This document shows positions 5,173 to 39,758 of a DNA stretch of 64,000 nucleotides, one piece after another. Each line of letters begins with the position of its first letter. Position 1 is the stretch's first letter. Below the pieces are notes generated by a model, which was not told the DNA's origin, made no database searches, and was given only the letters and a program-made list of their open reading frames with translations. Where the stretch lies: the sequence record PP534475.1; one strand, written 5' to 3'. Source of the stretch: Escherichia phage YJin-2024a. A program made the position numbers and the translations under genes.

Positions 5173-6386
5173 TCTTTATCTCCCTCGGTGGAACCTTGAG
5201 GTCTACCACCTTCTTGACCAGATACGCCTGTTGCAGAACCAGCAACGTTAGCAGGAATACGAATCTTATTCATCTGCTCATCATCTAAAGGTTCAAGGTT
5301 CAGCTCTAAACGAGCTTCGTTACCAGTCATAATACCATTATTAACCAATGAGGTTAAATGTTTAGCCTCAGCTTCTTTATCTGGTGTTAATGCAGCTACT
5401 TCCTTAGTATTAGGAGTAATCTTATAACCAAAAAAGAAAGTAAGAGAACTAGTCAGCTTGTTCAGCATAGGGATGATAGTCATGTAATAGAACAGTTCGA
5501 TATTTGGTCGAATGTTCGCATTATTACCACCATCAAGTAGCACCTGCGGAACACCAAAGGCTAGACAGATGGATTTATTAAATCCTTCGATGTCTTCCTT
5601 AAAGTCTAGATCTTTAAAAGAGGATATTTGGGAGTACGGTTTAGCTTTCATACCACCATCTAGAATCAGGACAGAGGACTGACCAGTACTAGGATTATAA
5701 TCTAGTTGTAATTCTTCTTGTTTACGCTCACGCAATTTCTTGTTCAGGATTTCATCCGTCTCAAGAATAAGACCAATCACGGTTCCGTTATCGAGGAATT
5801 TCTCTTTAAAGTTAAGCATCTTAGAACGCTTCTCAAGAGAATCGATAACAGTAGCAACACGAGATTGTCCAGAAATTTGAGAATTTGTGCCACACACGTA
5901 ACTGTTATCCTTTATAAAGATAATCTCATCTACGCGATAGTCTATCTGGTTATTAAATATAAATTTTTTGATAAACTTATTGGCATCTGCCTCTACTTGC
6001 ATTAGTGCAGCAGGGACATGGTAAAGTGCTGTGCCATCCCAATAGATGTATGCACAACCTTCAAAAAGTAGGTCAGTGACTACAAGTCTACGGAATGTGC
6101 TTATATCCATGAATGGATTAGGTCGTACATTTAAGAGAGTGTCTAGAGTCTTTGTCTTGATGCCGTTAGCATACGTGACAATATTATATTTATCTCCGAC
6201 AGTATAAGAACACTCCGCCGCACTATCTATAACCATATTAGCAGTTCTATTGAGAATCTCAATTTTACTGTAGGCTTGTCCAGTGGTAAAAGGCTTACGG
6301 TTAGTGCGATGACTAACTGGTTCCATGTCTCTTATAATACGTTGACCCGGATTTAGCTTTTCAGTAATCCAGCTTTTAAAACCCAT
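5169..6386 (-). CDS. portal protein
   Basis: 405 aa; position between terminase and protease. Confidence 0.8.
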   Translation of the reverse strand: MGFKSWITEKLNPGQRIIRDMEPVSHRTNRKPFTTGQAYSKIEILNRTANMVIDSAAECSYTVGDKYNIVTYANGIKTKTLDTLLNVRPNPFMDISTFRRLVVTDLLFEGCAYIYWDGTALYHVPAALMQVEADANKFIKKFIFNNQIDYRVDEIIFIKDNSYVCGTNSQISGQSRVATVIDSLEKRSKMLNFKEKFLDNGTVIGLILETDEILNKKLRERKQEELQLDYNPSTGQSSVLILDGGMKAKPYSQISSFKDLDFKEDIEGFNKSICLAFGVPQVLLDGGNNANIRPNIELFYYMTIIPMLNKLTSSLTFFFGYKITPNTKEVAALTPDKEAEAKHLTSLVNNGIMTGNEARLELNLEPLDDEQMNKIRIPANVAGSATGVSGQEGGRPQGSTEGDKE

Positions 6387-6823
6387 TATAAGAACCTTGC
6401 GAATCCTGATTTTGTTTCAGTCTTGACTTGTGTCTTTTCTTGAGGATTCTGTAATTTGTCTTTCTGCTTTTGAACCCACACTTTTTGCTTATTAGCAGAA
6501 AATAAAGGAGGTTCTTTTGTGTAAACCTTATGTAATAATTGGTGGTGATGCTGGCAGAGTGTTACTACTTCTTCAATTAGCTCTCGCTCATATTGCTTAT
6601 AGAATGCTTCCCTATTTGATAGGGTAACTTCCTCATCAGTGAAATCTAAATGATTTTCTTTAGCGAACTTTTTTACTAATTGAGAAACAGTAAAATAATG
6701 ATGCAACTCTAGGTCATCATTACTAGCACAAATGGCACAGCAATCACCTCTTCTATACCTAGATTTTATACCGTCACGCATGATTGAAATAGCGTCACGT
6801 TTAAACTTTACATTAGTTGCCAT
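6386..6823 (-). CDS. HNH homing endonuclease
   Basis: CCAICASNDDLELHHY HNH-type motif; internal ATG with AGGAG RBS chosen as start; inserted between terminase and portal. Confidence 0.6.
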   Translation of the reverse strand: MATNVKFKRDAISIMRDGIKSRYRRGDCCAICASNDDLELHHYFTVSQLVKKFAKENHLDFTDEEVTLSNREAFYKQYERELIEEVVTLCQHHHQLLHKVYTKEPPLFSANKQKVWVQKQKDKLQNPQEKTQVKTETKSGFARFL

Positions 6824-7083
6824 TAATGCTCCTAACTTTTTTATTATAATACTGTATGCGGTTATTATTAACTCTACTATACAGATTTTTATGCTGCCTC
6901 GGCGGGTATTTTTACCTCTAATATAGGCAACATAGCAAAATAATTTTTCTTGTTTACGTTCTATTATGGGAGAAGTTCTCCCGATCAATGAATATAGTAT
7001 ACATAATCGTATCGAATTTGTAAAGGGGATTTTAAAATGTAGGAATGGGATACCAACTGAGTAGTATCCCATCCTATACTTAT

Positions 7084-8892: not shown

Positions 8893-10680
8893 TTAGGTAA
8901 GGCGTTGAACTGTTACTCTTAATCTTGGTAGGAAAATAGCTGCAGCCTCATCTGCATGAATAATTACGCCCAATTCAGCATTACCATTTCCTAGATTTTT
9001 AATAGTATAAATATATCCGTTTCTTCTAAATGTTAACTCATCAGGTCTACTTGCCCAAGTTTGAGTATAACTATATGCAGTAGTGGAGTGATAAGGGACT
9101 AAGTATCCAGGAGGTAAGGTTAATATTTGATGGAATATTCCATCACCTTCCGTGTAACTATGCTGTCTTCTTCCTTGTACTTGCCAAGCAGCACCACCGT
9201 ATGTGCGTATGGCTCCTCCAGCCGTATTAATATTACCCATAATAACTTCCGTAGTTAATATTACCGTTGCGTTAGCGTTAGGCAATCCTAATCCTATGGT
9301 GGCCAAAGCTCTATAGTAGTTGCCTGCTCCAGGATACGCGGGGGTTATATCATCACCAACGTAGGTGCTAGCAACATTATTAGGAAATAGTCTTAAAGGT
9401 ACAGTACTAGGACTCCACACAGCTCCATGCTCATTACCGATAGTGTTATTACTTGAGTTTACGTACCATTGCTTACCTGCTCCGAATTTGTAAATACTGA
9501 TTTGAGACTTGGCTCCTCCATAATCTACAGGAGACCATAAAGATCCATTACTAGATCCTACAATTTCACATCTTGCAGTGGTATCCCCGAAGGCTCCAGT
9601 GTACGCTGCGTTATTTCCAATGTACTCCATATCTGGCCTATAGCCTAAGTTACCAAAAGCATTTTGGTTGATAAACTTATATCCAGTATTTGGTAAACTA
9701 ACCCCTTTTATAGTAAAATTAGATGGAGTTATAAGTATATCTGACCCAGTAAATGGATTACCAGATACACCCATATTACCATTAGAGTACCTTAGATTAA
9801 GTACATACCAAATAACCTTAGTAGGAGTTATGTTATACCAATCCTGCACATACACTTTCTTAGCGGCCTGTGCTGCTAGATTAGATGTTGAACCTTTACA
9901 TATATAAACCTTATCAGGATACGTAGGAGATTGGTATAATAAGTTAACATTAGCTGGTACTGTGCCCTTTTTACCTACGTAACCTCGTATATTAGAGTTA
10001 CAAACATAGAACCAATTATGCCCCCTATGGGCGGCCCCTATAGGAGCTTGCCAATTAGGATGCCAGTAGTCAGCATTACCACCGTCTATAGGTACTGTAG
10101 ATGCTCCTGCTGGAAATCCTGCTAAAGTCCATGCCCTACCTATAGCCTCACCAGCATATGCTCCTCCCGGCCTATATAAATTAAACCCGGAGGCTTGAGA
10201 TATGGTACCACCTGTACCCTGCCTAGCAATTGATTCTTCATGGCCTAAACCAGAGTTATAAATATAGGTGCCATGTGCTAAACTATTACCTGATGCAAAA
10301 GCTGACGTAAGACCTACTTCTGCACCTGCCCTACCAATAGGCGGATCTTCAAAAAATGCAGTAAATTGACCAACTTGAGACTGAGTACCATTAAGAAAAG
10401 CCCTATGAGTACCATTAATCTCAATAGCAGTTAGTATAACTCTACCTGGGTCATTGGATTTAATATTTATTATGTCAGAGGGCATCTGACATACAAAAAA
10501 CCCATTTCCAGCATTTCCTAATCCAGCCTCATAAGTGCCATCAACTAGGACAAATGGCATATCACTATGAAAAATACTATTGGCATTTGGACTATAATGA
10601 CGATTAATGTCACCACCAGATTCAGTATTTAAAGATAGTACGGTCTTACCATCGCTATATTTTCCAGCGAAAAAACCCAT
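8893..10680 (-). CDS. receptor-binding tail protein (pb5/Oad-like) or tail fibre
   Basis: 595 aa, Gly/Asn/Tyr-rich; last late gene before the repeat region; divergent lipoprotein gene next to it, as recalled for T5 oad-llp. Confidence 0.5.
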
Positions 10681-10705
10681 ATAATCTCCTATTATAAAAA
10701 TGTAT

Positions 10706-10734
10706 TTGCTTTCATCCCTCTATTTTGCTATAAT
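10706..10734 (+). promoter_or_regulatory. sigma70 promoter, near-identical to T5 PN25 (TTGCTT-17-TATAAT)
   Basis: aaaaatgtatTTGCTTtcatccctctattttgcTATAATagattcataaatt matches the PN25 core as I recall it. Confidence 0.75.
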
Positions 10735-10765
10735 AGATTCATAAATTAGAAATGGAGAGATAAAT

Positions 10766-11032
10766 ATGAAAAAGTTTGTGATTGCACTAGTTGCCGCAGT
10801 TATGTTATCTGGTTGTGCACCCGCTCCCAAACCATTTTGTACTGGATTTGTAAAATCTTTTGGTGGTGCGGGAGAAGAACATTACGGTCTCAAGATTCAA
10901 AAAGTTCGTATTAAGGGAGATCGCTTCCCAGTAGTACAGCTCCGTACTAAGTTTGGGTGGTGGGATCTCAGTCAGTTTGACCTTAAATATGGTGATTGTA
11001 AATTTAAACTAGAGCAATCTAACTACCTGTAA
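10766..11032 (+). CDS. lipoprotein, candidate Llp-like receptor-blocking (lytic conversion) protein
   Basis: Signal peptide with lipobox MLSGC; 88 aa; divergent from the receptor-binding protein gene. Confidence 0.55.
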   Translation: MKKFVIALVAAVMLSGCAPAPKPFCTGFVKSFGGAGEEHYGLKIQKVRIKGDRFPVVQLRTKFGWWDLSQFDLKYGDCKFKLEQSNYL

Positions 11033-11145
11033 TTAGTATAAAGCAAAAAGACATCCAAGTAAACTAAATTTTTTATTTCTTGAATGGTATATTGGCAGAA
11101 ACCACTATGTAAGAAAAGTAGAAGTCCTTCTAGGAAGTCACAAGC

Positions 11146-11328
11146 ATGGTTGGTTATGCACATATTTTAAAATATCATATTTATTGGAGCATGAAAGATA
11201 TGTCAAACAAAAGAAAGAATAGACGCGGAGAAGTGTATGATAGCTGGATAAATAGTTTTGGGTTCGGAACTATCTTATTCTTTATTTTCGTAGGTTTTTG
11301 GTTAGCAGCTATGGCGGGGTGGATTTAA
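11146..11328 (+). CDS. small membrane protein
   Basis: 60 aa; C-terminal hydrophobic helix; first of four overlapping small ORFs. Confidence 0.4.
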   Translation: MVGYAHILKYHIYWSMKDMSNKRKNRRGEVYDSWINSFGFGTILFFIFVGFWLAAMAGWI

Positions 11329-11435
11329 TGGAATGGGTAATTATTACACTACTGGGGATTGTGATTATTGGGCAGTGTATTTTAGATAATCATCTAGCTA
11401 GAATTGAAACCTTACTATCGGAGAAACGTAAATGA
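11328..11435 (+). CDS. small membrane peptide (35 aa)
   Basis: TAATG overlap with the upstream ORF; single TM helix; not in the ORF track (too short). Confidence 0.3.
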   Translation: MEWVIITLLGIVIIGQCILDNHLARIETLLSEKRK

Positions 11436-11626
11436 TGGAAGTGGCAGTTACACTAATAGTAATATTAGTCTGGGTAATCCTCATTGTCTCTCGTATCGTG
11501 TATCTCCGCCTAAAAACTCTAGAAGCTCAGGTGAAACAACAACAAGTTACTATAGAAAAGCTAGTACTACTGCAACGTTGTGATAGCACCCGTATTCTGC
11601 AAATTGAGAGGGAATTAGATGTTTAG
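11432..11626 (+). CDS. small membrane protein with coiled-coil tail
   Basis: ATGA overlap with the upstream ORF; N-terminal TM helix. Confidence 0.4.
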   Translation: MMEVAVTLIVILVWVILIVSRIVYLRLKTLEAQVKQQQVTIEKLVLLQRCDSTRILQIERELDV

Positions 11627-11864
11627 TATTGTAATTGCTTTTATTATCGGGATACTCGCGGGAGTTTTCGGGACGACTGCGGCAATCAACAAGCATCGGG
11701 AATATATTGTGGGAGTGACGCGAGAGATTGCGGAAAGGGAGCGGAAGTTTGACGAGAAACGTGCGGAGTTTGAGCGGGAGTGGTCGGATGGATCTCGGGC
11801 GTCGCGGAAGAGATTCCGTGAGTTCAGACCAGAACACAGGTTTGATGACCCTTCTATGCGCTAA
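11619..11864 (+). CDS. small membrane-anchored protein, Arg/Glu-rich tail
   Basis: 81 aa; N-terminal TM helix; overlaps the upstream ORF. Confidence 0.4.
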   Translation: MFSIVIAFIIGILAGVFGTTAAINKHREYIVGVTREIAERERKFDEKRAEFEREWSDGSRASRKRFREFRPEHRFDDPSMR

Positions 11865-12015
11865 TTTGACTTTTGCCAAATTTCATAAGATTACACATGG
11901 AGGTGTGCCCAGTGGCCTCCCGGATGAGAATGCGTCTCATTACCGCCCGGTACTTAGCAGACTAATAGTCACGGCATGTTATCATTGCACACCGTGACTA
12001 TTTCAATTTTAATTA

Positions 12016-12750
12016 TTATGCGACTTTTAGTTTCTCAATATATTGTTGCGGGCTGCAACTATATTCCGCGCGTTCTTCCTCGGTCATACTTTCCCAGCAT
12101 AACTTCAATCGATCGGCTAGAAATTGATAATCATTATCATCGTCGAGAGATTCATCAATAAAGGTTCCGCCTATCAATGCCACGCCGATGGATAGAATAT
12201 CATTAACGGCTTGCGCATCTAGCGTTTTAAATCCGTATGACGCCGCCGCTGATAATACACCTTTATGATCATCAATCATTGTAAAATCAGCGTTCGGATA
12301 TAGTTGCTTGAATAGCTCAAAGTAATGGCTTTTATATATATCGTCCTTGCTGTGGTATATCTCGCTAACCTTATCAGCCGTAAAATATTTGTGAAGTGTA
12401 TCGCGGGAAAACACGCGGATATTAGTATCCCCACGCCCGCGCAATCCTTGTTTGCGTAGGAAGTAATAATCTGACTTGCTCATCAGTCGAGCGGTACAAA
12501 TAATGTTTAAAGTGTTTGCGTCATTCATGCACTGGCGCATATATTCCACCAATGGCAATAAGGTATCTTGCATAATTAAATCATGCTTGCAAGCCTCATT
12601 TTTATACTTATTTAAATCTAAATTACCCTCGCTATCAAAGCAAGGTGCTACACGATGGAACGAATTAATGATTGTGCCATCAAGATCCCAGATCATGACA
12701 CGGGAAATATGCGGGAAATTACGGGTAATATTCGTTTTAACTTGATTCAT
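12016..12750 (-). CDS. dmp: 5'-deoxyribonucleotidase (HAD superfamily), Dmp-like
   Basis: HAD motif I WDLDGTI; start placed at the internal Met with GGAGA RBS (244 aa). Confidence 0.7.
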   Translation of the reverse strand: MNQVKTNITRNFPHISRVMIWDLDGTIINSFHRVAPCFDSEGNLDLNKYKNEACKHDLIMQDTLLPLVEYMRQCMNDANTLNIICTARLMSKSDYYFLRKQGLRGRGDTNIRVFSRDTLHKYFTADKVSEIYHSKDDIYKSHYFELFKQLYPNADFTMIDDHKGVLSAAASYGFKTLDAQAVNDILSIGVALIGGTFIDESLDDDNDYQFLADRLKLCWESMTEEERAEYSCSPQQYIEKLKVA

Positions 12751-12830
12751 TTTGTTACGTTCTCCATTAAAGGGATTTAGTTTATCCAGCATTACCCGCT
12801 ATTTATAAGCGGGTAATAATAAATCAACTA

Positions 12831-13223
12831 TTAAAGACCATAAGCCAACGCATCAGCGATGAAGCTAATATCTTCGCCGGATACATGAGAACGAATACCA
12901 GCGCAAGTATACACCTTTGCGCTCGTTAGCTGATCATCAAAGCAAGCTGGACAAGGCGCGACAACTGCAAACGCTAGGCCAGCTTTTACGGCGTCGATGA
13001 TAATCGTTTCCTGCTTCACCGTATCAACATAAACGCCTGCGGCCTTGATGTGACTACTTGCGCGGCCTTGAGTATAGGCAAAGGTAGTAACCTGCAAAGC
13101 GTCATTGAAGTCTAATAATTCATCAATAACGTGCCCCGCCTCAACGTGGTAACGTTCACCATTAGAATAAACCAGAACGATTGAGGATTGAGCGCGATCG
13201 AATGGAATATTTTGCTTTTTCAT
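12831..13223 (-). CDS. hypothetical protein (130 aa)
   Basis: ORF with conserved pre-early leader upstream; contains PCPAC motif but no convincing family assignment. Confidence 0.5.
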   Translation of the reverse strand: MKKQNIPFDRAQSSIVLVYSNGERYHVEAGHVIDELLDFNDALQVTTFAYTQGRASSHIKAAGVYVDTVKQETIIIDAVKAGLAFAVVAPCPACFDDQLTSAKVYTCAGIRSHVSGEDISFIADALAYGL

Positions 13224-13288
13224 GTTTATAACTCCAATTAATTTAATAAGGGATATAAGCGAGGTATATACCCCGCTTATAAAGTTAA

Positions 13289-14959
13289 TTATGCGAAAAA
13301 TTTGCCGTTTTTAAAGTCAATCAAAGTGCGCTGACCGTTCGCATAGGTAATTAAATGCGTTTGCGTCCAGCTTGACGCGCCAACGTTGTAACCCATATCG
13401 AGGGAACCAGCAACGCCCGCGGTATATACACCGCCGTAAATGCTTGCCGTATGCGTATGCCCCGTGTTTAACTTGCCCAATTTTTTAAATTGCTTCGGAT
13501 TGCCACGGCTGCCGTTAATGCCGTTGTGACCGTGTACGCCGCATTCAATGCCTGCAATTTTAAATGATTGGTCAGTCGTTAGGAAAATTGCGTTAAACTC
13601 GCAACCTGCAACCGTACGCAGCGCATAATCTAGCACGTTGAAAGTATCGTCATGATTACCGATTGCCGCGTAAATCGCAGCATTAAGGCGGTGATACAGT
13701 TCCGCGTTGGCTGGATCGTCTTTAATGTTAGCATTGCGATCATCAAGCCAACGAGAAAGCGCCAAATCGTGGTTTGATTCCACAATGATTGTTTGACTAA
13801 AATCACGTTCCATTGATTCCAGCACGCGCCCGGTGTCGATCAGATCATCAATAACCTTATCACGTCCGGCTGCATACTGTTTCGCTAGAAATACACCAGA
13901 CGCGCGGTTGTGATGGTTGCGTGATGTAAAATCATGCACGTCATGGACGAATTGATATTTTGGTTTGAGAATATCCACTAGCCCATAAGTATCACCGTGA
14001 CCCCATGACGCAGCGGCGCACTCCTCGTCTAATTTTTCGGCGTGAATATCGCCATATTGCAAGCCTAAAACATGCCCCGTTGTTTCAAAGCATCCGGTGG
14101 GAGTAGCGCAAACGTTCAGATCGTAAAACATGCCGCTTTCGTCCATTGTTTCAAGCTGGCGCACAAAAAACTCACCGTCTTCGTCGAACTCAACAATCAG
14201 CGCACCGTAATTATGCAATGCTTCCGCTTTTTGCCCTGCTTTCTGCTGAATGTAGTTTTTAAGCGTTGCCGTTCCGGTTGAATACATGCGGCGTACTACT
14301 TCACCTTTGAGAGCTGGGACGCTTTCGGCGGTGATTTTAGCGTGACCAATTGCCAGACCTTCAAGATTAAGCGCCGTTGCAGTTTCTGCAAATCCAGATA
14401 GCGGGTAATCTGCGGTGGGCAAAACATTAATTTCAGCCATGAAAGCGAAACGGCGGTTATTTAAAAACACGTTTTTGCTGCAAATATATTTATCAAATGC
14501 GGAATCATATTTTACACCGTCTGCGCCTTCACCATTTTGAAAGCCGTTTTTGTTATAAATATACTTAGAAACAAGCAAATCAGCGCCGATAAATTGGGCA
14601 TATTGTTCAAGCGAGGCTAAAAAGTTTTTATGAGGGAAAGTATTATTCTGAATCGATGTAATAATAAAGCGTTTGCCTTGTTTTACTTCCCACTGTTCAA
14701 CCGTGCTGGAAATAATTCCAGCCGCTTCGGGGCGCTCGTCGTTTTTAATGGCTTTTACAGCTTTCGCCGCTTTTGGTTTCGCTGGTTTATTTGCTTCTAA
14801 CCAATCGCAAATTGCGGTCGAGTGCTTCGTTGTGTCATATACCGCTTTAGAAATATCGTCACAAACTTCCAGCTTGGTGGCGCGCAGACGTTTACCGTAG
14901 AAATTAAAGTCAGCGGCCAGTTTCAGGATAACGGTTTGTTTTTCTGCGGAAAAAATCAT
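13289..14959 (-). CDS. A1: A1-like pre-early protein, calcineurin-like metallophosphoesterase
   Basis: GDIHA, GHGDTYG, SNHD and GHTH phosphoesterase motifs; 556 aa from the internal Met, the length I recall for T5 A1. Confidence 0.75.
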   Translation of the reverse strand: MIFSAEKQTVILKLAADFNFYGKRLRATKLEVCDDISKAVYDTTKHSTAICDWLEANKPAKPKAAKAVKAIKNDERPEAAGIISSTVEQWEVKQGKRFIITSIQNNTFPHKNFLASLEQYAQFIGADLLVSKYIYNKNGFQNGEGADGVKYDSAFDKYICSKNVFLNNRRFAFMAEINVLPTADYPLSGFAETATALNLEGLAIGHAKITAESVPALKGEVVRRMYSTGTATLKNYIQQKAGQKAEALHNYGALIVEFDEDGEFFVRQLETMDESGMFYDLNVCATPTGCFETTGHVLGLQYGDIHAEKLDEECAAASWGHGDTYGLVDILKPKYQFVHDVHDFTSRNHHNRASGVFLAKQYAAGRDKVIDDLIDTGRVLESMERDFSQTIIVESNHDLALSRWLDDRNANIKDDPANAELYHRLNAAIYAAIGNHDDTFNVLDYALRTVAGCEFNAIFLTTDQSFKIAGIECGVHGHNGINGSRGNPKQFKKLGKLNTGHTHTASIYGGVYTAGVAGSLDMGYNVGASSWTQTHLITYANGQRTLIDFKNGKFFA

Positions 14960-15048
14960 AATAATAAACTCCATTAAAGGGACTAGGTTAATAATGGCAA
15001 TGTTGCCAAATATAACGCCTTGAATAATAGGCGTTATAATTTGCAACA

Positions 15049-15246
15049 TTAATTTAAAGGCATCAGGCTAGAACTAACACCACAAACAATGGCAGCAATA
15101 AAACAAATCAGACCTAAACGCTTTGCCAATATTGATTTACGTTTAAAATAATACGAATCTAAATCATTTTGAAAATATGCGAACAATAATGAAGCCGCCA
15201 TAATAAATAAGCCTAGAATGAGCGATTCAGTGGGGTAAAAGATCAT
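15049..15246 (-). CDS. small membrane protein
   Basis: Hydrophobic 65 aa; start placed at the ATG preceded by the conserved pre-early leader (the ORF track begins at an upstream GTG). Confidence 0.4.
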   Translation of the reverse strand: MIFYPTESLILGLFIMAASLLFAYFQNDLDSYYFKRKSILAKRLGLICFIAAIVCGVSSSLMPLN

Positions 15247-15303
15247 TTTAATAACTCCAATTAAAGGGAAATTATAGTGGGGAATAATCCCCACTAGTTA
15301 AAT

Positions 15304-15711
15304 TTATTCACCTGCGGCCTGTTTTACCTCATCGGCAACGCCTAGCAGTTGCGCCACGGCGTCCAACGTTTCTAATTTTGCGCTTTCCAGTGATGCCAGA
15401 TCATCGGCGTCCTTGATAATGCCGGAATCAATAGCGTGTTTTGCAATTACTCGCACATAGTGAGCTTTACGGATTGAACTACCGCCGCCAACTTTGCGCG
15501 GCTTGTCGCTTTTCTGGTAGGCTTTCGCGCTGGTCAATTTCGAACGAACTGACACGGGAGAAGTAGCGCCCACTGCCTTTGCGATCTCTTTCAAGCCGTC
15601 GCTATTTGCAAAATCTAGCCCGTTTTCATTGATTAGTTGCTGATACATGGAAACAGCCTGCTGGGTGTTTTCTTCGTTCCAGGAAAATTTTGCGGTTTTT
15701 GCGTTAGTCAT
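15304..15711 (-). CDS. A2: A2-like pre-early protein
   Basis: 135 aa, basic C-terminal half; immediately downstream of A1; conserved leader upstream. Confidence 0.55.
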   Translation of the reverse strand: MTNAKTAKFSWNEENTQQAVSMYQQLINENGLDFANSDGLKEIAKAVGATSPVSVRSKLTSAKAYQKSDKPRKVGGGSSIRKAHYVRVIAKHAIDSGIIKDADDLASLESAKLETLDAVAQLLGVADEVKQAAGE

Positions 15712-15811
15712 GATATAAACTCCAATTAATTTAATTTAAGGGATTAAATGATTAACTAATGTTAATCGTTATATACCCCAAACTATCGGGGCATATAAAG
15801 TTAACACTAAT

Positions 15812-16063
15812 TTATAAAACGGCTTCCCATTTTTCGTTGCGTTGAACAACCTTTACAACGTCGCCGGATTTAACGCGAACGTTATAAATCGGCTTGCCGC
15901 TGTTACTGCGTTCTGTTTCAGCGTATACCGCGTCAATTGTATCGAACGGCATGAGCGCCGCGCCTTTAATACGTTCGGCTTTTCCGGTTAATTCGTCCGT
16001 TTTAGTAACGAAAGGAATAAAAACGGATTGACCAATTTTTGGCGCGGTAATAACGTTTTGCAT
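15812..16063 (-). CDS. hypothetical protein (83 aa)
   Basis: ORF with partial conserved leader upstream. Confidence 0.4.
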   Translation of the reverse strand: MQNVITAPKIGQSVFIPFVTKTDELTGKAERIKGAALMPFDTIDAVYAETERSNSGKPIYNVRVKSGDVVKVVQRNEKWEAVL

Positions 16064-16293
16064 AATATAAACTCCTGTTTATTTGCTGGATTGTTCCGCA
16101 TTACCTGCTAGAAAATAACAGGTAATAAGAAAAAATCCGCTCGCCATTGTAAAATCAATTTAAGGAACTCCACGAAGGCCGCTATATCCCAGTTAGGGGG
16201 CGGGGCACATTATGGCAAGTACCGGCCGTCAGATTTTATCAAGTTATCGCTCTTATCGAACTGGGTATATCTTAAAGCCTACCGGCTAGGTTG

Positions 16294-16497
16294 TCAAATA
16301 GTTTTTTGCGCTTTTTTATGATTTTCCTTCAGGTCAATCATAATGTTTCGCCAGATCATTTCTAGTCCTTGCTGGCGGCCTTTCTTGTACTGCTCAAATC
16401 GATATTTTACCGATCTTTGCGCTACTGTCAATAAATTTTTTGTTTTGCTATCCAGTGCCTTGCTAGGTTTACCAGTGATCAATAAAGTTTGTTTCAT
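16294..16497 (-). CDS. hypothetical basic protein (67 aa)
   Basis: ORF only. Confidence 0.3.
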   Translation of the reverse strand: MKQTLLITGKPSKALDSKTKNLLTVAQRSVKYRFEQYKKGRQQGLEMIWRNIMIDLKENHKKAQKTI

Positions 16498-17187
16498 ATC
16501 GTCGATTCCTTATAATGAATAAGTTTACCGCCGATAGGCTTTAAGATATACCCAATTTTTAAAGAGCGCGGCGGTAAACTTCCCGCCGTGTAGTTCGTCA
16601 TTGCCGCCCTACGAGATAAATAATAACAAACAACGAAAAAGGCGCAACCTTATATTTGTAAAGAAATGTAAAGACAAACGCCACCGGACACCGTGCGGCG
16701 ACCTGGGCGCAGCGCATTAAAATTAAAAGAAACGGGCGCGCGAATAACACAAAACATAGCAGATAGGCAAGTGATTTTTTCATTTATATTTGCTTTGGGG
16801 GTATTGACAAAATCTAAAAAGCTCGTGGCAGCGATAAACGGCTTATCCCTTTATGATTGGATGGCTAAAAACTTTATCGCGTTCTGGGGCGTTTTAGGCC
16901 GCCTATTTTCGACTTAACAAATCATTAACAAACGCAAAATTGAAAAATAGTTGGAAAAGGTCTTGACTTTTAAAAATCAAGGGGCGTTGCGTTAATTTAT
17001 TAAATAAAATATTTGACTTTTATTTGTTAGTATGCATCGGAAAGATAGCAGACTAATAATTGCTAGGATGATAATCATGCTGGTGGATTGTAACGGCCTG
17101 AATTATTAGCAGACTATTAATCACGGAAAATCTCATTAGCCAACTAACTATTTCATGATATATAATATACTTATAAATTAATGAGAA

Positions 17188-17270
17188 ATAATAACAATAA
17201 GAAATCATCACCATTATAATAATAACAATAAGAAATCATCACCAATATAATAATAACTATAAGAAACTAT
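17188..17270. repeat. tandem ~30 bp repeat, about 2.8 copies
   Basis: ataataacaataagaaatcatcacca repeated head-to-tail. Confidence 0.7.
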
Positions 17271-17280
17271 CGGCCTAAGT

Positions 17281-17410
17281 GAGAACCACTATCATTTAAG
17301 TTATCCACAACGTTTTCCACAGCACAAAATAACTTGACACGATAGGCGGCGATATGAGGGCTTTTACACATACTTATCCACAGGTTATCCTACTGTATAA
17401 ATATACAGGG
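17281..17410. repeat. inverted repeat arm A with DnaA-box motifs
   Basis: Two perfect TTATCCACA boxes (about 17301 and 17375); reverse complement matches 19575..19710. Confidence 0.75.
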
Positions 17411-17643
17411 TAGAAAGACAGTGTTAACGACTGCAATCAATTTTAAGCGGCTTAAAACGCTTTCTAACGAGCTGAAGGCTGCGGGGTAATATTAAAGTAA
17501 AGCCTCAATGCGTCGCCCTGGTGGCTTCGCCGTGTTTTGCTCTTTATTACACCGCTGCGCGGTTAGCATAAAAATAGGCGTTAGGCAAGAAAAAATTTAC
17601 CAATAACACCGAAAACGAGTAATAACTAGCCTATTGTAAAGTT

Positions 17644-17684
17644 TTGTAAAGGTCGCCTTTTATGGTGGCCTTTTTTGTTATAAT
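17644..17684 (+). promoter_or_regulatory. candidate promoter with extended -10 (TGTTATAAT)
   Basis: tgtTATAAT at 17677-17684, about 25 nt before the first plus-strand ORF. Confidence 0.35.
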
Positions 17685-17707
17685 GCCTTTACACCGTTTG
17701 AGGACGG

Positions 17708-17971
17708 TTGAAAATTTTCCCAAAAATTTGGAGGCTTAAAATGGTTGCTTTTTCTTCTTCTGACGCTCTTTTCACTGGTAAAGGCTGGGTATCAAATCGC
17801 TGGATTATTCAGGAAATGGTGCAAGAATACGGCATTGCTAAAACTTATACTACCATTCAGGCGCTTTATGATAATGATCAAATCGATCAGCAAACAGCGG
17901 GCTTTTTACTGGATACCCTGAAGGCGGAACACTGTACCAAAAAACAAGCCGCCAAAATTGTTTTAATGTAA
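17708..17971 (+). CDS. hypothetical protein (87 aa)
   Basis: GGAGG RBS; first gene of the plus-strand module. Confidence 0.5.
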   Translation: MKIFPKIWRLKMVAFSSSDALFTGKGWVSNRWIIQEMVQEYGIAKTYTTIQALYDNDQIDQQTAGFLLDTLKAEHCTKKQAAKIVLM

Positions 17972-18021
17972 TTAATAACGGGGCGATACTTTCGCCCCCA
18001 CTAACTAGGGGAGTATTAAAA

Positions 18022-18171
18022 ATGGTTATTTTTCGAGCTATTCTGGCGGGTATCTTGGGCGCTATTTTATCTTTGTTTGCAATAGCTTTCGACGTTCACG
18101 CGGTTATTATAGGCGCGGGTATCGCTGTATTTTCTTATCTGCTGGGCTGCATGAATAGTAAAGGAGAATAA
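18022..18171 (+). CDS. small membrane peptide (49 aa)
   Basis: GGGGAG RBS; hydrophobic throughout; not in the ORF track. Confidence 0.35.
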   Translation: MVIFRAILAGILGAILSLFAIAFDVHAVIIGAGIAVFSYLLGCMNSKGE

Positions 18172-18173
18172 AA

Positions 18174-18386
18174 ATGATCCGCAACGTTTCTCTTGCACGT
18201 TCGAAAGGTTTTAAGCTGGTGGACGCTAACACGTTCGAGCGTCCAGATTGTAAAATCGAATATGTAGCACGTAATAAAAATGCCTTTCGTGTTACCGAGA
18301 AAAAATTTGATAAGCGCGGCAACGTGATCCTTGAAACGGTTAGGCACTTTGCCACCTTTTACGCTGCATTTCGTGGGGTACTATGA
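18174..18386 (+). CDS. hypothetical protein (70 aa)
   Basis: AAGGAG RBS immediately upstream. Confidence 0.5.
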   Translation: MIRNVSLARSKGFKLVDANTFERPDCKIEYVARNKNAFRVTEKKFDKRGNVILETVRHFATFYAAFRGVL

Positions 18387-18508
18387 AAAGCGTTATTGTT
18401 GTTCTCCTTGCAATGGCTGGCGGTTTTATCGCCACCTTATTTAAGAATGATCCTCTTTCATTGGGGATCTTTATGTTATTATCAGGCTATCTGATCGGGA
18501 GGTTATAA
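18383..18508 (+). CDS. small membrane peptide (41 aa)
   Basis: ATGA overlap with the upstream ORF; hydrophobic. Confidence 0.35.
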   Translation: MKSVIVVLLAMAGGFIATLFKNDPLSLGIFMLLSGYLIGRL

Positions 18509-18509
18509 A

Positions 18510-18854
18510 ATGGTTATTTATGAGGGCAACCGTTTTGTTGCTAACTGCCGCCCGGCATTGTTAGCAAACTATTTGAACCAGCTTTCGCCAGCTTATAAGG
18601 GCGTTATTAATATTTATGAGGGCAAGGCGCATTATAAAATCAATGCGGTCGTTGCCCGTGAACTAGCGTTTCAATTTTTGACCTTTGCATCTTGCGACGT
18701 TCAGGTTATGGGTGAGGCATTAATCGCAGAAAATGAAGACGATTTTATTAATATTTTCCGTAAGGTGTGCACCGAGCGCCTGATAATGAAAGGCGCGTAT
18801 ATTCAATCCACGGCTGATAGTATTGAAACAGCGTTTCGAAAAATAGGTAAATAA
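18510..18854 (+). CDS. hypothetical protein (114 aa)
   Basis: GGGAGG RBS; largest ORF of the module. Confidence 0.5.
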   Translation: MVIYEGNRFVANCRPALLANYLNQLSPAYKGVINIYEGKAHYKINAVVARELAFQFLTFASCDVQVMGEALIAENEDDFINIFRKVCTERLIMKGAYIQSTADSIETAFRKIGK

Positions 18855-18855
18855 T

Positions 18856-19017
18856 ATGGCTGTTTATATTGCTTTGCTAGGATATGCGTTATCCCTTATT
18901 GTTGGTATGGTTATTTATAGCGCAATCGGCAATATTGTGTTATCCCTTGTTGTCTGCACTATATTAGGGCAGTTTTGCGGAATGTTCGTTATATATAAAT
19001 TAATGCAAGGAAAATAA
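18856..19017 (+). CDS. small membrane peptide (53 aa)
   Basis: Starts 2 nt after the upstream stop; hydrophobic. Confidence 0.35.
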   Translation: MAVYIALLGYALSLIVGMVIYSAIGNIVLSLVVCTILGQFCGMFVIYKLMQGK

Positions 19018-19127
19018 TACTAATGAGATTATATATTTTCGTTGGTAATGCTAGGGCAGCTAATGATTCCGCTGGTGGCGATAACGTTCGCCACTATTGG
19101 CAAAAATATATTTACTAGGGCATTATT

Positions 19128-19322
19128 ATGAGCAATAAAATTATTGTAACCAAAACTAGTACAATGGTTGATATTTTTTACGTGCCCGATACGCCGGAAA
19201 ACCGACAAGCGGTTGAGCGTGGGGAATATGATAAAGTGATCTATGATCACGATGGTTATTATCAGTATTTGGTGGATTCATATGGGGAGGAGGAAAAAAT
19301 CACGCATCGACTACCCGACTAA
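19128..19322 (+). CDS. hypothetical acidic protein (64 aa)
   Basis: ORF with upstream ATG context. Confidence 0.4.
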   Translation: MSNKIIVTKTSTMVDIFYVPDTPENRQAVERGEYDKVIYDHDGYYQYLVDSYGEEEKITHRLPD

Positions 19323-19365
19323 TAATCACGGGGCGCAACTATCCGGAAGTGCCCCCAATTTTCAA

Positions 19366-19384
19366 ATGATAATCATTCTCATTT
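19366..19384. promoter_or_regulatory. palindromic site AATGATAATCATTCTCATT (full-site version of the half-site repeat downstream)
   Basis: Near-perfect dyad built from the AATGAGAAT half-site. Confidence 0.5.
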
Positions 19385-19574
19385 GACCGCGCCCGCGATG
19401 GTTAGCCTGCTAATGGTTAGGGTGTTACGTGTCGCCTTGTGTGATCGTTAGCGGGCTAACTAATTTTCAAGCCTCCTCCAATTTTGCCCTTGTTTTAGTA
19501 CCTCCAACAAAATTAAACGCGTTAGAATGCGTTTGAGGGCGTTTTAACGCTATATTAGAACTATTCACTGCGTA

Positions 19575-19710
19575 GGAATACTGTATATTTATACAGTAGG
19601 ATAAGCTGTGGATAAGTCTGTTGATAACGCCTCAAAATGGCTAGGATTTTGTCAAGTCAAATCGTGCTGTTGATAAGTCTGTGAATAACTTAAATAACAG
19701 TGTTTCTCAC
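19575..19710. repeat. inverted repeat arm B with DnaA-box motifs
   Basis: Reverse complement aligns with 17281..17410 over about 130 bp; TGTGGATAA at about 19607. Confidence 0.75.
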
Positions 19711-19719
19711 TTCCATTCT

Positions 19720-19937
19720 TAAATGAGAATCATTATCGTTCGCATTCCGCTTTTTAAATGAGAATCGTTTCACTTCTTAAATGAGAATCATTCCGCTTTT
19801 TAAATGCGAATCATTATCATTTGCATTCCACTTCTTAAATGAGAATCATTCCGCTTTTTAAATGAGATTGATTCTCGTTTCACTTTCTAAATGCGAATTA
19901 TTATCATTCTCATTCCGCTTTTTAAATGAGAATGATT
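19720..19937 (+). repeat. array of 8 direct repeats TAAATG(A/C)GAAT(C/G)ATT
   Basis: Copies at about 19720, 19755, 19778, 19801, 19836, 19859, 19888, 19923. Confidence 0.8.
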
Positions 19938-19983
19938 CTTATTATCATTCGTATTTAGCGCAGGGCAATTGCCCTGCGCTTTT

Positions 19984-20583
19984 GTGCAAATCCGACATTG
20001 CTCCACGGGTGTTACGTGCGGGTGTATGTGCAAATCCGACAGGATTTTTGGTAGTGTGCAAATCCGACCCGAAAAATTTTTATAGTGTGCAAATCCGACA
20101 ATGAATTTTCCCAAAAACTCCAGCAATCTCGAACTGCGTTCGAATCCTGTGGGGTATGTGCAAATCCGACATGGTTTTTCTAGGATTAAGATGTGCGAAT
20201 CCGACAAGATTTTTATGACTTCGATTGGAGGGTGTGTGATTATGTGAGTTTGGGGAGAAGATGAGAGAGTGAGAGAAACTTGGGGGAACTGTGGGAGAGG
20301 CGCATGTTTGGTGCGGAGCACCCGATTTGCGGGGATTTTGGGGAAGAGTTGAGAAGATTTGGGTTAATTTGAGATTAGTGGAGATAAAGTAAAATTTTAT
20401 TAGCAAAATGGGGCAAAATAGCTTGACAAGTGAAAATTTCTGTGGCTCTAAAAACTCAGGTAAACATGGGCCTTCGGCCCGAAATAATGCTGCTATTTTC
20501 ATGAGATTATATGTTCCTAAAAACTTAGGCAATTGTGCAAATCCGACCATAAATTTCTAGAAACACAATGTGCAAATCCGACA
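19984..20583 (+). repeat. array of 8 direct repeats GTGCAAATCCGAC(A/C)
   Basis: Copies at about 19984, 20028, 20056, 20087, 20158, 20193, 20535, 20570, each followed by a short T-rich tract. Confidence 0.8.
20226..20400 (+). repeat. purine-rich block with several G4-5 tracts, almost no C on the plus strand
   Basis: gggagaag, tgggggaac, gcggggatt, ttggggaag within about 170 nt. Confidence 0.6.
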
Positions 20584-21118
20584 ATAAAATCCAGAAATGT
20601 GTTTTCAAAAAATGTCTCCTAGAAATAACCGCCCTCCCCATAACCGCCCTGTATTAAACCGCCTAGTATATGTTCCTAGAAACTTAGGAGAACCGCCCAC
20701 TAGAAGTATGATATCTCGTGAGAACTCTGGAGTTTCTAGGAAAGTGTTGTGCCATCCTAGCAGATGAGTGGCAACCGGTGTATCATCTTGAATGTAAATT
20801 ATGTGGACAAAAGTTTTACCTTTTATTTAAATAAAAGATCCCCAGGGTTCTCATATAGAGCTTTGCCCCCGCCAGAAGGTCTCGTGGTGTTTCTAGCAAT
20901 TTATATTAAATTACTTATTAACTTGTCCTGTCGCTCCGTATCCTCCGCTACAAGTTAGTAATTTTAAATTACTGAACCACCACACCTTCTGTGTGGCAAC
21001 TCTAAATGGTTAATTCTATTAACTCATAGAGTTATGATAACATACATTTAGCTATCTGTCAACGAGAGTTTGTATTTGAGTCTCGGTACAGGTATTGTGC
21101 ACCGAGACATGCAGGATC

Positions 21119-22003
21119 TTACAGTAACTCTTGGTATGCTTTTTGATACGCCTCAGTGTCAGTAGGTGTACCTTTTGCTAGTGCAATTAATTCATCTGTT
21201 ATCTGAATATTCGTATTATAACGTGTGTGGAACTCGTTAGGAATTTCTAGGTATCTATTGATGAATGCTGCAGCAAGCGGTGTGACTAAACCAATCTCTA
21301 GAGATAGCTTAACTTGTTTTTCGTAGATTAAATATTGAGAATCAGATGGGATTGGTTGGGTTACGTCAGTTTTCTCCGGTTCTTTTTCTGGAAGCAATGG
21401 ATTATTATATAATGCTTCATCTGGAAGCACAGATTTACGCTCTTTAAATATATAAGTTTCTAGATCCGATGCTTTAGATCCTGAGTATACCGCAAAGACG
21501 CTAGCTTTACCCTGGGATGCCCTAACTGGTAAATAACTAGTAGGATAGCTTCTTAATGCATCATGGAATGGACTTCCTGAGTACTTGTACGTATCCCCAT
21601 AGAGATCATCAATATTCATTCGTTCATCTTCAAAAATGTGAAAAGAGCTAAATGATGGGATAGTAAAGTATTCCATCTGTAACCCATAAACTAAGAAACG
21701 GTGTGCATATGCGCTAATCTTTAAGACTGTGAATGCTTTTTCACCTTCCTTATAAGAATTGCCCTTTGAAGTAACTTGATAACGTTTACAAAACATCTCT
21801 ACTAGACGTTTCTCATTAATATTAAGGGTGGAGTACAGTCGTCCACTTAATCCTATAAGTGCATCGAACATAAATGCTAGTTTATCTTTTTCTTCCTGAG
21901 ATAGTTCTGGAAACGGTAATACTTTCGCATTAGGAACATTATTGTTCTCTTTAGGTTTTGTTTTACCAGCATTTTGTCTTAGTTTATCTTTAAAGTTATA
22001 CAT
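21119..22003 (-). CDS. hypothetical early protein (294 aa)
   Basis: ATG with GGGAG RBS; first gene after the repeat region. Confidence 0.6.
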   Translation of the reverse strand: MYNFKDKLRQNAGKTKPKENNNVPNAKVLPFPELSQEEKDKLAFMFDALIGLSGRLYSTLNINEKRLVEMFCKRYQVTSKGNSYKEGEKAFTVLKISAYAHRFLVYGLQMEYFTIPSFSSFHIFEDERMNIDDLYGDTYKYSGSPFHDALRSYPTSYLPVRASQGKASVFAVYSGSKASDLETYIFKERKSVLPDEALYNNPLLPEKEPEKTDVTQPIPSDSQYLIYEKQVKLSLEIGLVTPLAAAFINRYLEIPNEFHTRYNTNIQITDELIALAKGTPTDTEAYQKAYQELL

Positions 22004-38269: not shown

Positions 38270-38345
38270 TGGTAGTTAGTAGTGGATTTGAACCACTGTA
38301 GTCGCTCCGTATGAAGGAGGTGCATAACCACTCTGCCAACTAACT
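38270..38345 (-). tRNA. tRNA with CAU anticodon (Met or Ile2)
   Basis: T-arm, 7-bp acceptor pairing, CCA encoded; anticodon loop UUCAUAC. Confidence 0.7.
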
Positions 38346-38441
38346 GTTATGTTTTACTAGACTAAGTAAGTATTCTTTATACTCTTTAGACCAACTAGCT
38401 TTTTTAAACTTTCCTGGACGCATAGTCTTAATTCCTAAATT

Positions 38442-38518
38442 TGGTACTCCGGGAGGGATTTAAACCCCCGATCTCTCGGTTATCAGCCGAGTGCTTTAGA
38501 TCGCTAAGCTACCGAAGC
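38442..38518 (-). tRNA. tRNA-Ile (GAU)
   Basis: Acceptor and T-arm pairing, CCA encoded; loop CUGAUAA. Confidence 0.7.
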
Positions 38519-38519
38519 A

Positions 38520-38726
38520 TTAATATTTAATTGCAGAACGTTTACCATTTCTAGGCGCACCTGGAAGTCGTGCACGTTCTGCCATTCTTCGCTTAATCTT
38601 TGAGATATTTTCTAGTGTTTGTTCTTCAGGCTTAATACCTGAAACACTACACCACTGATTACCATCCCATGCGATAATGATCATAACACCATTACCCATA
38701 ATCTTTTCTGTGAAAGTAATTCTCAT
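38520..38726 (-). CDS. hypothetical protein
   Basis: ORF between tRNA genes; start at internal Met. Confidence 0.35.
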   Translation of the reverse strand: MRITFTEKIMGNGVMIIIAWDGNQWCSVSGIKPEEQTLENISKIKRRMAERARLPGAPRNGKRSAIKY

Positions 38727-39019
38727 TATAGCAACTCGTCTAAGCAAGAGGTATATTTAAGTTTACCATCTTTATCTACTTTGATTTCGACTTCCGCTCG
38801 TGGTACTTGACGAACTACACCATGAATCATCTTATAGCGAATGCCTTTAGCTGGTTCACGATCTTTTGGAAATACTTGCTTAACCGTTACTACCTTGAAA
38901 CCCTCACGCGGTGTTAACACTACTACTTGATCACCTTCTTTGATCTTCCAAGAGCTAGGAAATTCATAGGTATAGCGTTGACCACCAGTTTGGAACACAA
39001 CAGAAAGATAACGTTTCAT
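38726..39019 (-). CDS. hypothetical protein (97 aa)
   Basis: ORF with PN25-like promoter upstream. Confidence 0.5.
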   Translation of the reverse strand: MKRYLSVVFQTGGQRYTYEFPSSWKIKEGDQVVVLTPREGFKVVTVKQVFPKDREPAKGIRYKMIHGVVRQVPRAEVEIKVDKDGKLKYTSCLDELL

Positions 39020-39049
39020 TTGGTTTCCCTCTCATTAATTTATATAAAT

Positions 39050-39078: not shown

Positions 39079-39086
39079 ATGAATTT

Positions 39087-39254: not shown

Positions 39255-39268
39255 ACTAATCCTTAAAT

Positions 39269-39742: not shown

Positions 39743-39758
39743 AACGTTTCCTTAAAGT

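What the first reader, a model, noticed from the sequence alone, without database searches (positions are those of the whole stretch)
10706..11032. PN25-like promoter driving a lipoprotein gene divergent from the receptor-binding protein gene
The sequence at 10690-10760 is nearly identical to the T5 PN25 early promoter as I recall it, and it drives an 88 aa lipoprotein (lipobox MLSGC) transcribed away from the 595 aa tail protein gene. In T5 the Llp lipoprotein, encoded next to the receptor-binding protein gene, blocks the phage receptor after infection. This pair looks like the equivalent module, and the lipoprotein sequence could point to which outer-membrane receptor this phage uses.
Basis: partly seen in the sequence, partly recalled or inferred. 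Interest (0 to 1): 0.5.

Follow-up and report, generated by a model that had tools for sequence, protein, structure and literature searches.

The report
Known BtuB-blocking phage lipoprotein gene
This is the well-known gene pair of T5-like phages, a tail-tip receptor-binding protein and next to it a small early-expressed lipoprotein that blocks the same receptor after infection; here it is the common BF23/SPC35 version that targets the vitamin B12 transporter BtuB, so the finding is correct but ordinary.

Summary
The features are real. An 88-aa lipoprotein gene (10766-11032, +) lies 85 bp from, and divergent to, a 595-aa pb5-type receptor-binding protein gene (8893-10680, -). It sits behind a sigma-70 promoter: TTGCTT, 17 nt, TGcTATAAT.

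The lipoprotein is 100% identical to the "receptor-blocking protein" of Salmonella phage SPC35. It differs at one residue from BF23 Llp and at two from DT57C Llp, both shown experimentally to exclude BtuB-dependent phages. The binding protein is 99% identical to SPC35's (BtuB receptor), 84% to BF23 Hrs and 30% to T5 pb5.

"Nearly identical to PN25" is overstated. True PN25 lies upstream of ORF102 in T5's early region, not at llp. The window promoter matches it at 45/70 positions: two exact blocks and an unrelated spacer. Several other T5 early promoters score almost as well.

Already known; low interest.

The parts
8893..10680 (-). Receptor-binding tail-tip protein gene (pb5/Hrs type, 595 aa), BtuB-specific allele
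   Evidence: ORF. 99% aa identity to the SPC35 binding protein, 84% to BF23, 65% to DT57C, 30% to T5 pb5. PDB pb5 8b14/8a8c E=1.1e-46. phrog_4815.
10681..10765 (.). 85-bp divergent intergenic region. It carries the llp early promoter, and presumably part of the late promoter of the binding-protein gene on the other strand.
   Evidence: Identical to SPC35 and 3 nt different from BF23. T5 and BF23 records annotate an early (+) and a late (-) promoter here. It is an island of 71% identity to T5 between two stretches with no nucleotide similarity. The minus-strand promoter was not located here.
10690..10705 (+). A/T-rich upstream block (TATTATAAAAATGTAT), with AAAAAT-TA conserved upstream of the -35
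   Evidence: AAAAAT and TA are invariant across the window, BF23, TrudiRoth, phiR2-01 and T5 llp promoters. The stretch 10684-10705 is 82% A+T.
10706..10711 (+). -35 hexamer TTGCTT
   Evidence: Invariant in five diverged llp promoters. Shared with PN25 and most T5 early promoters.
10726..10734 (+). Extended -10, TGcTATAAT (17-nt spacer from the -35)
   Evidence: The -10 is conserved (TATACT in phiR2-01).
10735..10747 (+). Discriminator and start-site block AGATTCATAAATT, identical to PN25. Inferred transcription start near A10741.
   Evidence: 19/19 identity to PN25 across -10 to about +7. ATAAATT is invariant. The start site is inferred from my own knowledge that the PN25 transcript begins AUAAAUUUGAGAG; it was not measured here.
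10754..10759 (+). Shine-Dalgarno GGAGAG, 6 nt before the ATG
10766..11032 (+). llp: receptor-blocking (lytic conversion / superinfection exclusion) lipoprotein precursor, 88 aa. Signal peptide is aa 1-16 (10766-10813), the lipidated Cys17 codon is 10814-10816, and the mature protein is 72 aa with Cys9 and Cys62.

Best explanation
This is the BF23/SPC35-type host-recognition cassette of a T5-like phage (Demerecviridae).

Proposed mechanism:
1. The 595-aa protein is the pb5/Hrs tail-tip protein. It binds the outer-membrane vitamin B12 transporter BtuB and triggers DNA ejection.
2. Host sigma-70 RNA polymerase transcribes the divergent 88-aa gene (llp) early in infection, from a strong T5-class early promoter.
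3. The product is exported and lipidated at Cys17. Because residue +2 is Ala, it is sorted to the inner leaflet of the outer membrane.
4. There it binds BtuB and makes it unusable as a phage receptor. This prevents superinfection and the loss of progeny on cell debris.
5. By analogy with T5 Llp and FhuA, it probably binds the periplasmic face and plug of BtuB and closes the extracellular loops by reverse allostery.

Shown here: gene anatomy, lipoprotein signals, promoter elements and their conservation, and near-identity to proteins of tested function.

Taken from the literature on near-identical proteins: BtuB specificity and the exclusion phenotype.

Inferred: early timing in this phage, periplasmic location, and the plug-jamming mechanism on BtuB.
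For: - Gene order terL, terS, binding-protein gene (-), llp (+), small ORFs, terminal repeat is the same as in T5, BF23, SPC35 and DT57C.
- Llp is 100% identical to SPC35, 99% to BF23 and 98% to DT57C. The mature protein differs from the tested BF23 and DT57C proteins by a single change (Ile in the window, Val in BF23/DT57C).
- DT57C Llp expression cut plating of BF23 and DT57C more than 100-fold but not of T5. BF23 Llp is reported to block BtuB (PMC4728585).
- The binding protein is 99% identical to that of SPC35. BtuB is the receptor of SPC35, BF23, DT57C and EPS7 (PMC8624392), and most Markadamsvirinae target BtuB (PMC8594841).
- Lipobox and LPAM_1 match.
- The promoter's TTGCTT, TATAAT and ATAAATT blocks are conserved across llp modules whose proteins are only 24-69% identical, while the spacer varies.
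- The promoter belongs to the T5 early-promoter family: 13 matches in the window against 0.14 expected, and it resembles many T5 early promoters. The same site is annotated as an early promoter in T5 and BF23.
- T5 Llp is 'expressed early during infection' (title of Decker 1994, cited).
Against: - Nothing contradicts the assignment.
- No transcript or phenotype data exist for this particular phage.
- No BtuB-Llp structure was found in the searched literature, so the plug-jamming step is analogy only.
- Mature BF23-type Llp is basic (pI 9.3) whereas T5 Llp is acidic (pI 5.6), so the interfaces must differ.
Confidence: 0.93

Rival explanations
1. The lipoprotein is a lysis component (an outer-membrane spanin, Rz1-like) or another envelope protein, and does not block the receptor.
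For: It is a small outer-membrane-type lipoprotein. A distant relative, P0013, has a weak PHROG hit to 'Rz-like spanin' (E=0.0067).
Against: - The near-identical BF23 and DT57C proteins give receptor-specific exclusion when expressed alone (PMC4728585).
- The gene is linked to the binding-protein gene, not to the holin and endolysin genes, which lie in the early region in T5.
- The AF2 model is a folded beta domain, whereas outer-membrane spanins are, to my knowledge, largely unstructured and proline-rich.
- The window protein's own significant PHROG hit is phrog_1119, Cor/Llp.
Confidence: 0.02
2. The module targets an outer-membrane receptor other than BtuB (for example FepA or FhuA), because the binding protein has diverged 16% from BF23 Hrs.
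For: The binding protein is only 84% identical to BF23 and 65% to DT57C. T5-like phages with FhuA or FepA specificity exist (PMC8594841).
Against: - The binding protein is 99% identical to that of SPC35, whose receptor is reported as BtuB.
- DT57C, with an even more divergent binding protein, still uses BtuB and is excluded by the same Llp.
- Llp is essentially invariant across these phages.
- The binding protein is only 30% identical to FhuA-specific T5 pb5.
Confidence: 0.03
3. The promoter is a true orthologue or recent copy of PN25, rather than an independent member of the early-promoter family.
For: PN25 is the top-scoring T5 promoter (54/67). It shares an exact 19-nt block from -10 to the start site and an exact 12-nt block at the -35.
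Against: - PN25 sits upstream of ORF102 at about 63 kb in T5. That is a different locus, and by offset it lies outside this window.
- The 17-nt spacer is unrelated.
- Five other T5 early promoters reach 53 identities.
- The syntenic T5 llp promoter (T5P41) has the same architecture.
- BF23 already has a mismatch inside the 19-nt block.
Confidence: 0.1

Closest known systems
BF23 hrs-llp module (Mondigler, Ayoub & Heller 2006); the same module in SPC35 and DT57C
   Same: Same position and divergent orientation. The Llp precursor is 99% (BF23), 100% (SPC35) and 98% (DT57C) identical. The intergenic promoter region is identical to SPC35 and 3 nt different from BF23. The binding protein is 99% identical to SPC35. 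The BtuB receptor and BtuB blocking are documented for these phages.
   Different: The binding protein is only 84% identical to BF23 Hrs and 65% to DT57C, while Llp is conserved. This is the mosaicism within the module that Golomidova et al. 2016 already noted. The genome backbone is no more than about 94% identical to any deposited phage over the first 25 kb.
T5 oad(pb5)-llp module; FhuA-Llp structure 8A60
   Different: The receptor is FhuA, not BtuB. Llp identity is only about 24-30%. There is no nucleotide similarity across the bodies of either gene. T5 Llp is shorter (62 against 72 mature residues) and acidic rather than basic. T5 is not excluded by BF23-type Llp.
T5 early promoter PN25 (T5P33, upstream of ORF102)
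   Same: -35 TTGCTT, 17-nt spacer, -10 TATAAT, and an identical 19-nt TATAATAGATTCATAAATT and 12-nt TATTTGCTTTCA. The A/T-rich upstream region is similar.
   Different: Different locus and different downstream gene. The spacer and the transcribed region after +8 are unrelated. Overall identity is 45/70. The window promoter has a TGn extended -10, which PN25 lacks in that register.
Cor lipoproteins of T1, phi80, N15 and HK022 (FhuA-blocking superinfection exclusion)
   Same: Small outer-membrane lipoproteins encoded next to the host-recognition genes. PHROG 1119 carries the 'Cor' name and many records annotate this gene as Cor.
   Different: The NCBIfam Cor equivalog NF047972 is not met: 16.1 bits against a cut-off of 31, with only the signal-peptide region aligned. 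tblastn identity to T1-like Cor is 27-36% at E about 1e-3. The target is FhuA.

Membership tests
T5-like receptor-binding / receptor-blocking module, BF23 (BtuB) type | Small lipoprotein gene immediately adjacent to, and divergently transcribed from, the pb5/hrs gene, between terS and the terminal repeat | tested here: met
   the same order as in T5, BF23, SPC35 and DT57C. The intergenic region is 85 bp.
T5-like receptor-binding / receptor-blocking module, BF23 (BtuB) type | High sequence identity of the lipoprotein to BF23 Llp | tested here: met
   87/88 identical to BF23, 88/88 to SPC35 and 86/88 to DT57C.
T5-like receptor-binding / receptor-blocking module, BF23 (BtuB) type | Type II signal peptide with a lipobox and an outer-membrane sorting residue | tested here: met
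   MKK, a hydrophobic core, L-S-G-C17 and Ala at +2. Pfam LPAM_1 scores 23.9 bits against a cut-off of 20.
T5-like receptor-binding / receptor-blocking module, BF23 (BtuB) type | Partner protein is a pb5/Hrs-type receptor-binding protein | tested here: met
   PDB pb5 E=1.1e-46. phrog_4815 E=1.9e-282. 84% identity to BF23 and 99% to SPC35.
T5-like receptor-binding / receptor-blocking module, BF23 (BtuB) type | Expression confers resistance to BtuB-dependent phages and blocks BtuB | not testable with these tools
   Reported for BF23 Llp and DT57C Llp (PMC4728585). These differ from the mature protein here by one conservative residue.
T5-like receptor-binding / receptor-blocking module, BF23 (BtuB) type | Early transcription from its own sigma-70 promoter | tested here: inconclusive
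   Promoter elements are present, conserved and of the T5 early class, and are annotated as early in T5 and BF23. Timing cannot be measured in silico.
Llp/Cor superfamily (phrog_1119) | Full-length profile match, including the mature domain | tested here: met
   Precursor E=1.7e-26 over 1-78 of 78 profile positions. Mature part alone E=4e-15. T5 Llp gives 1.1e-19 and 2.2e-10. Caveat: both types may be members of the PHROG seed alignment.
Llp/Cor superfamily (phrog_1119) | Conserved intramolecular Cys pair tying the N- and C-termini | tested here: met
   Cys25 and Cys78 are invariant in 12 family members and align with T5 Llp Cys11/Cys58. A disulphide is reported for T5 Llp. Bond formation here is inferred.
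Llp/Cor superfamily (phrog_1119) | Same fold as T5 Llp (8A60 chain B, 7QJF) | tested here: inconclusive
NCBIfam NF047972 'phage exclusion lipoprotein Cor' (equivalog) | Score above the curated cut-off | tested here: not met
   16.1 bits against a cut-off of 31, with only residues 1-34 aligned.
PN25 promoter (T5P33) orthologue | Located upstream of the ORF102 homologue in the early region | tested here: not met
   PN25 is at about 63.1 kb in T5, upstream of ORF102. The window promoter is at llp, syntenic with T5P41.
PN25 promoter (T5P33) orthologue | Near-identity over the whole -50 to +20 region | tested here: not met
   45/70 ungapped and 54/67 gapped. Other T5 early promoters score 53 identities over 63-67 aligned positions.
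T5 early promoter class | A/T-rich upstream region, TTGCTT-like -35, TATAAT, and a conserved A(G/T)ATT...ATAAATT discriminator and start region | tested here: met
   The early-class discriminator motif is described in PMC7472727.

The most novel reading that the evidence does not exclude
BF23-type Llp, described in the literature as non-homologous to T5 Llp, is in fact a diverged member of the same Llp/Cor small beta-barrel lipoprotein family, with the same disulphide-clamped termini. If so, it most likely blocks BtuB as T5 Llp blocks FhuA: from the periplasm, by jamming the plug and folding the extracellular loops inward. That would make reverse allostery a general, portable way for phages to exclude competitors at TonB-dependent transporters. 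No BtuB-Llp structure turned up in the literature searched.
Probability: 0.55. Interest if true: 0.3.

Novelty: already known. Interest (0 to 1): 0.1.

Why it matters
For annotation, it fixes the terminal receptor of this phage as BtuB. It also names two genes that many deposited relatives still list as "hypothetical protein".

It predicts that infected cells, or cells expressing this gene, become resistant to other BtuB-dependent phages. Whether B12 uptake or E-colicin entry is also affected is my own expectation and was not tested. This matters when BtuB-targeting phages are combined in cocktails.

Scientifically it adds nothing new beyond one more allele combination: an SPC35-type binding protein and Llp on a somewhat different backbone. 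There is also a modest hint that the BtuB- and FhuA-blocking lipoproteins share ancestry.

Tried and rejected
- **Generic promoter and terminator scan.** It missed the llp promoter because TTGCTT matches TTGACA at only 3 of 6 positions. It found no intrinsic terminator between llp and the terminal repeat, so the 3' end of the transcript is undefined.
- **phmmer of the lipoprotein against PDB sequences.** Only noise (E>=0.2); T5 Llp was not retrieved.
- **hhalign of the family alignment against T5 Llp.** Only the signal peptide and first Cys aligned (28 columns).
- **Word-indexed protein search and the exhaustive profile search of 1.84 billion representatives.** These gave 11 clusters and 3 hits respectively. 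One hit was a repetitive 541-aa false positive (P0012). The family is narrow and phage-restricted, and no new distant relatives appeared beyond P0013.
- **PN25 as the T5 llp promoter.** Rejected: PN25 is T5P33 upstream of ORF102.
- **Late promoter of the binding-protein gene.** I looked on the minus strand of the 85-bp spacer. Only ambiguous A/T-rich -10-like strings are there (TATTAT overlapping the plus-strand -10, and TATAAT abutting the Shine-Dalgarno sequence), so I made no call.
- **NCBIfam Cor equivalog.** Below the cut-off.

Full report
**What is there**

The window carries an 88-aa ORF at 10766-11032 (+). It starts MKKFVIALVAAVMLSGC and lies 85 bp from a 595-aa ORF at 8893-10680 (-), so the two are divergent.

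- The small protein has a basic n-region, a hydrophobic core and the lipobox L-S-G-C17. It passes Pfam LPAM_1 (23.9 bits, cut-off 20).
- Residue +2 of the mature protein is Ala. By the established Lol sorting rule this predicts an outer-membrane lipoprotein.
- GGAGAG lies 6 nt before the ATG.
- Upstream are TTGCTT (10706-10711), a 17-nt spacer, and TGcTATAAT (10726-10734), preceded by an 82% A+T stretch.
- The composite pattern TTGCTT-N16-18-TATAATAGATTCAT occurs once in the window, against 0.00 expected in shuffles.
- The generic scanner missed the promoter only because TTGCTT matches TTGACA at 3 of 6 positions.

**The PN25 claim**

The PN25 sequence I recalled is 100% exact in T5 at AY587007 63118-63187. 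That is essentially the annotated "putative early promoter T5P33" (63117-63186), upstream of ORF102 in the early region. It is not the T5 llp promoter, which is T5P41 at 110421-110509.

Aligned to PN25, the window promoter is identical at 45 of 70 positions ungapped, or 54/67 with gaps. Two blocks are exact: TATTTGCTTTCA around the -35, and TATAATAGATTCATAAATT (19/19) from the -10 into the start region. The 17-nt spacer and the sequence after about +8 are unrelated.

PN25 is the top-scoring T5 promoter, but five others (T5P8, P16, P17, P18, P23) reach 53 identities. The window itself holds 13 matches with up to 3 mismatches to the 19-mer, against 0.14 expected. Eleven of them are on the minus strand of the early region.

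So this is a bona fide member of the T5 early-promoter family, and "nearly identical to PN25" is an overstatement.

The elements are under selection. In the llp promoters of BF23, TrudiRoth (Bas30), phiR2-01 and T5, the Llp proteins are 99, 69, 53 and 24% identical to this one. In all of them AAAAAT-TA-TTGCTT, TATAAT (TATACT in phiR2-01) and ATAAATTA are conserved while the spacer varies.

By analogy with PN25, whose transcript to my knowledge starts AUAAAUUUGAGAG, the start site should be near A10741. That would give a 25-nt leader.

**What it is**

The window is a T5-like phage. It is about 94% identical over its first 25 kb to Salmonella phages NR01 and SP33. It has the T5 gene order: portal, sciA, terL, terS, binding-protein gene (-), llp (+), small ORFs, terminal repeat with dmp and A1.

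Binding protein:
- Hits solved T5 pb5 (8b14, 8a8c) at E=1.1e-46.
- Hits phrog_4815 "receptor binding tail protein" at E=1.9e-282.
- Is 30% identical to T5 pb5, 84% to BF23 Hrs, 65% to DT57C and 99% to SPC35.

Lipoprotein:
- 88/88 identical to SPC35 "receptor-blocking protein".
- 87/88 to BF23 Llp (Ile44 here, Val in BF23).
- 86/88 to DT57C Llp, where the second change is in the signal peptide.
- The intergenic region is identical to SPC35 and 3 nt different from BF23.
- The published BF23 llp cloning primers match the window with a single mismatch.

Against T5 DNA the window is 93-94% identical up to 8930. It has no detectable nucleotide similarity across the binding-protein gene body (8931-10660) or the llp body and its trailer (10777-11162). 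A 71% island covers the 5' end of the binding-protein gene, the promoters and the start of the llp signal peptide (10661-10776). Identity resumes at 85% from 11163. This is the exchangeable cassette described for BF23 by Mondigler et al. 2006 (title cited).

**How it most likely works**

Literature on near-identical proteins:
- BF23 Hrs recognises BtuB, and BF23 Llp blocks BtuB on infected cells.
- DT57C Llp expressed from a leaky T7 promoter cut plating of DT57C-group phages and BF23 more than 100-fold and did not affect T5 (PMC4728585).
- SPC35, EPS7, DT57C and BF23 all use BtuB (PMC8624392).
- The vast majority of Markadamsvirinae target BtuB (PMC8594841).
- T5 Llp is expressed early (title of Decker 1994). 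It is periplasmic, binds a non-native state of the FhuA plug, and folds loops EL7 and EL8 over the pb5 site (PMC9586334).

My account is therefore as follows. Host RNA polymerase fires the early promoter soon after second-step DNA transfer. Llp is secreted, lipidated and sorted to the inner leaflet of the outer membrane. There it binds BtuB so that further pb5/Hrs binding fails. The last step, periplasmic plug-jamming of BtuB, is inference.

**Relation to T5 Llp and Cor**

Papers state that BF23 and T5 Llp are non-homologous. The evidence here is mixed.

In favour of homology:
- Pairwise BLASTP gives 30% over 67 residues, E=2e-4.
- Both proteins match phrog_1119 over its full length (1.7e-26 and 1.1e-19). 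They still match with the signal peptide and lipid Cys removed (4e-15 and 2.2e-10).
- The two non-lipid cysteines are invariant in the BF23-type family. They align with the T5 Llp Cys11-Cys58 disulphide pair.

Against, or weak:
- hhalign aligns only 28 columns.
- Foldseek finds nothing.
- The PHROG may simply contain both types as members.
- The NCBIfam Cor equivalog is not met.

I rate distant homology as likely but unproven.

The BF23-type family is narrow. It comprises 11 clusters at 90% identity. In an exhaustive profile search of 1.84 billion representatives it gave one 50%-identity representative plus one distant 86-aa relative.

**Verdict**

The receptor question is answered: BtuB. All of this is already known and annotated in many GenBank records. 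The only correction is that the promoter is a generic T5 early promoter rather than PN25 itself. Interest is low.

Noticed in passing
window 11900-22000 and 38270-49918: The window runs straight from the late region (llp) through a single copy of the terminal-repeat genes into the early region. The repeat genes include a dmp-like ORF at 12016..12792 (-) and an A1-like ORF at 13289..15049 (-). The early region holds 23 tRNA genes on the minus strand. The source record therefore looks like a collapsed or circularised assembly of a genome that, in T5 and BF23, is linear with about 10-kb direct terminal repeats.
   Followed up: partly
window 17161-53570 (13 sites): There are thirteen matches with up to 3 mismatches to TATAATAGATTCATAAATT, against 0.14 expected. 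Eleven are on the minus strand between 26 and 54 kb. This is the dispersed T5 early-promoter family, whose -10, discriminator and start-site block is conserved as a unit.
   Followed up: partly
window 8931-11162: Against T5 DNA the host-recognition cassette has no nucleotide similarity, except for a 71% island at 10661-10776. The island covers the 5' end of the binding-protein gene, the divergent promoters and the start of the llp signal peptide. The flanks are 85-94% identical. The conserved island could serve as a recombination point inside the module. That would fit the binding protein diverging (99/84/65% to SPC35/BF23/DT57C) while Llp stays at least 98% identical.
   Followed up: partly
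window 6386-7072 (-): The mechanical 228-aa ORF is over-extended. Positions 6386-6823 align with T5 ORF142/sciA, the nicking HNH endonuclease of about 145 aa. The window lacks the T5 'YomD' ORF between sciA and terL; the BF23 record also shows no such ORF there.
   Followed up: partly
window 10681-10765, minus strand: The late promoter of the binding-protein gene must overlap the llp early promoter back to back within 85 bp. T5 and BF23 records annotate such overlapping promoters. On the minus strand only ambiguous -10-like strings are visible. Possible interference between the early and late promoters was not resolved.
   Followed up: partly
window 11033-12015: No intrinsic terminator was predicted between llp and the terminal repeat. 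Four small overlapping ORFs (60, 45, 64 and 81 aa; 11146-11864, +) correspond to T5 ORF148-151 and BF23_00172-175. Two of them are annotated as putative membrane proteins in DT57C. They may be co-transcribed with llp. Their function is unknown.
   Followed up: no
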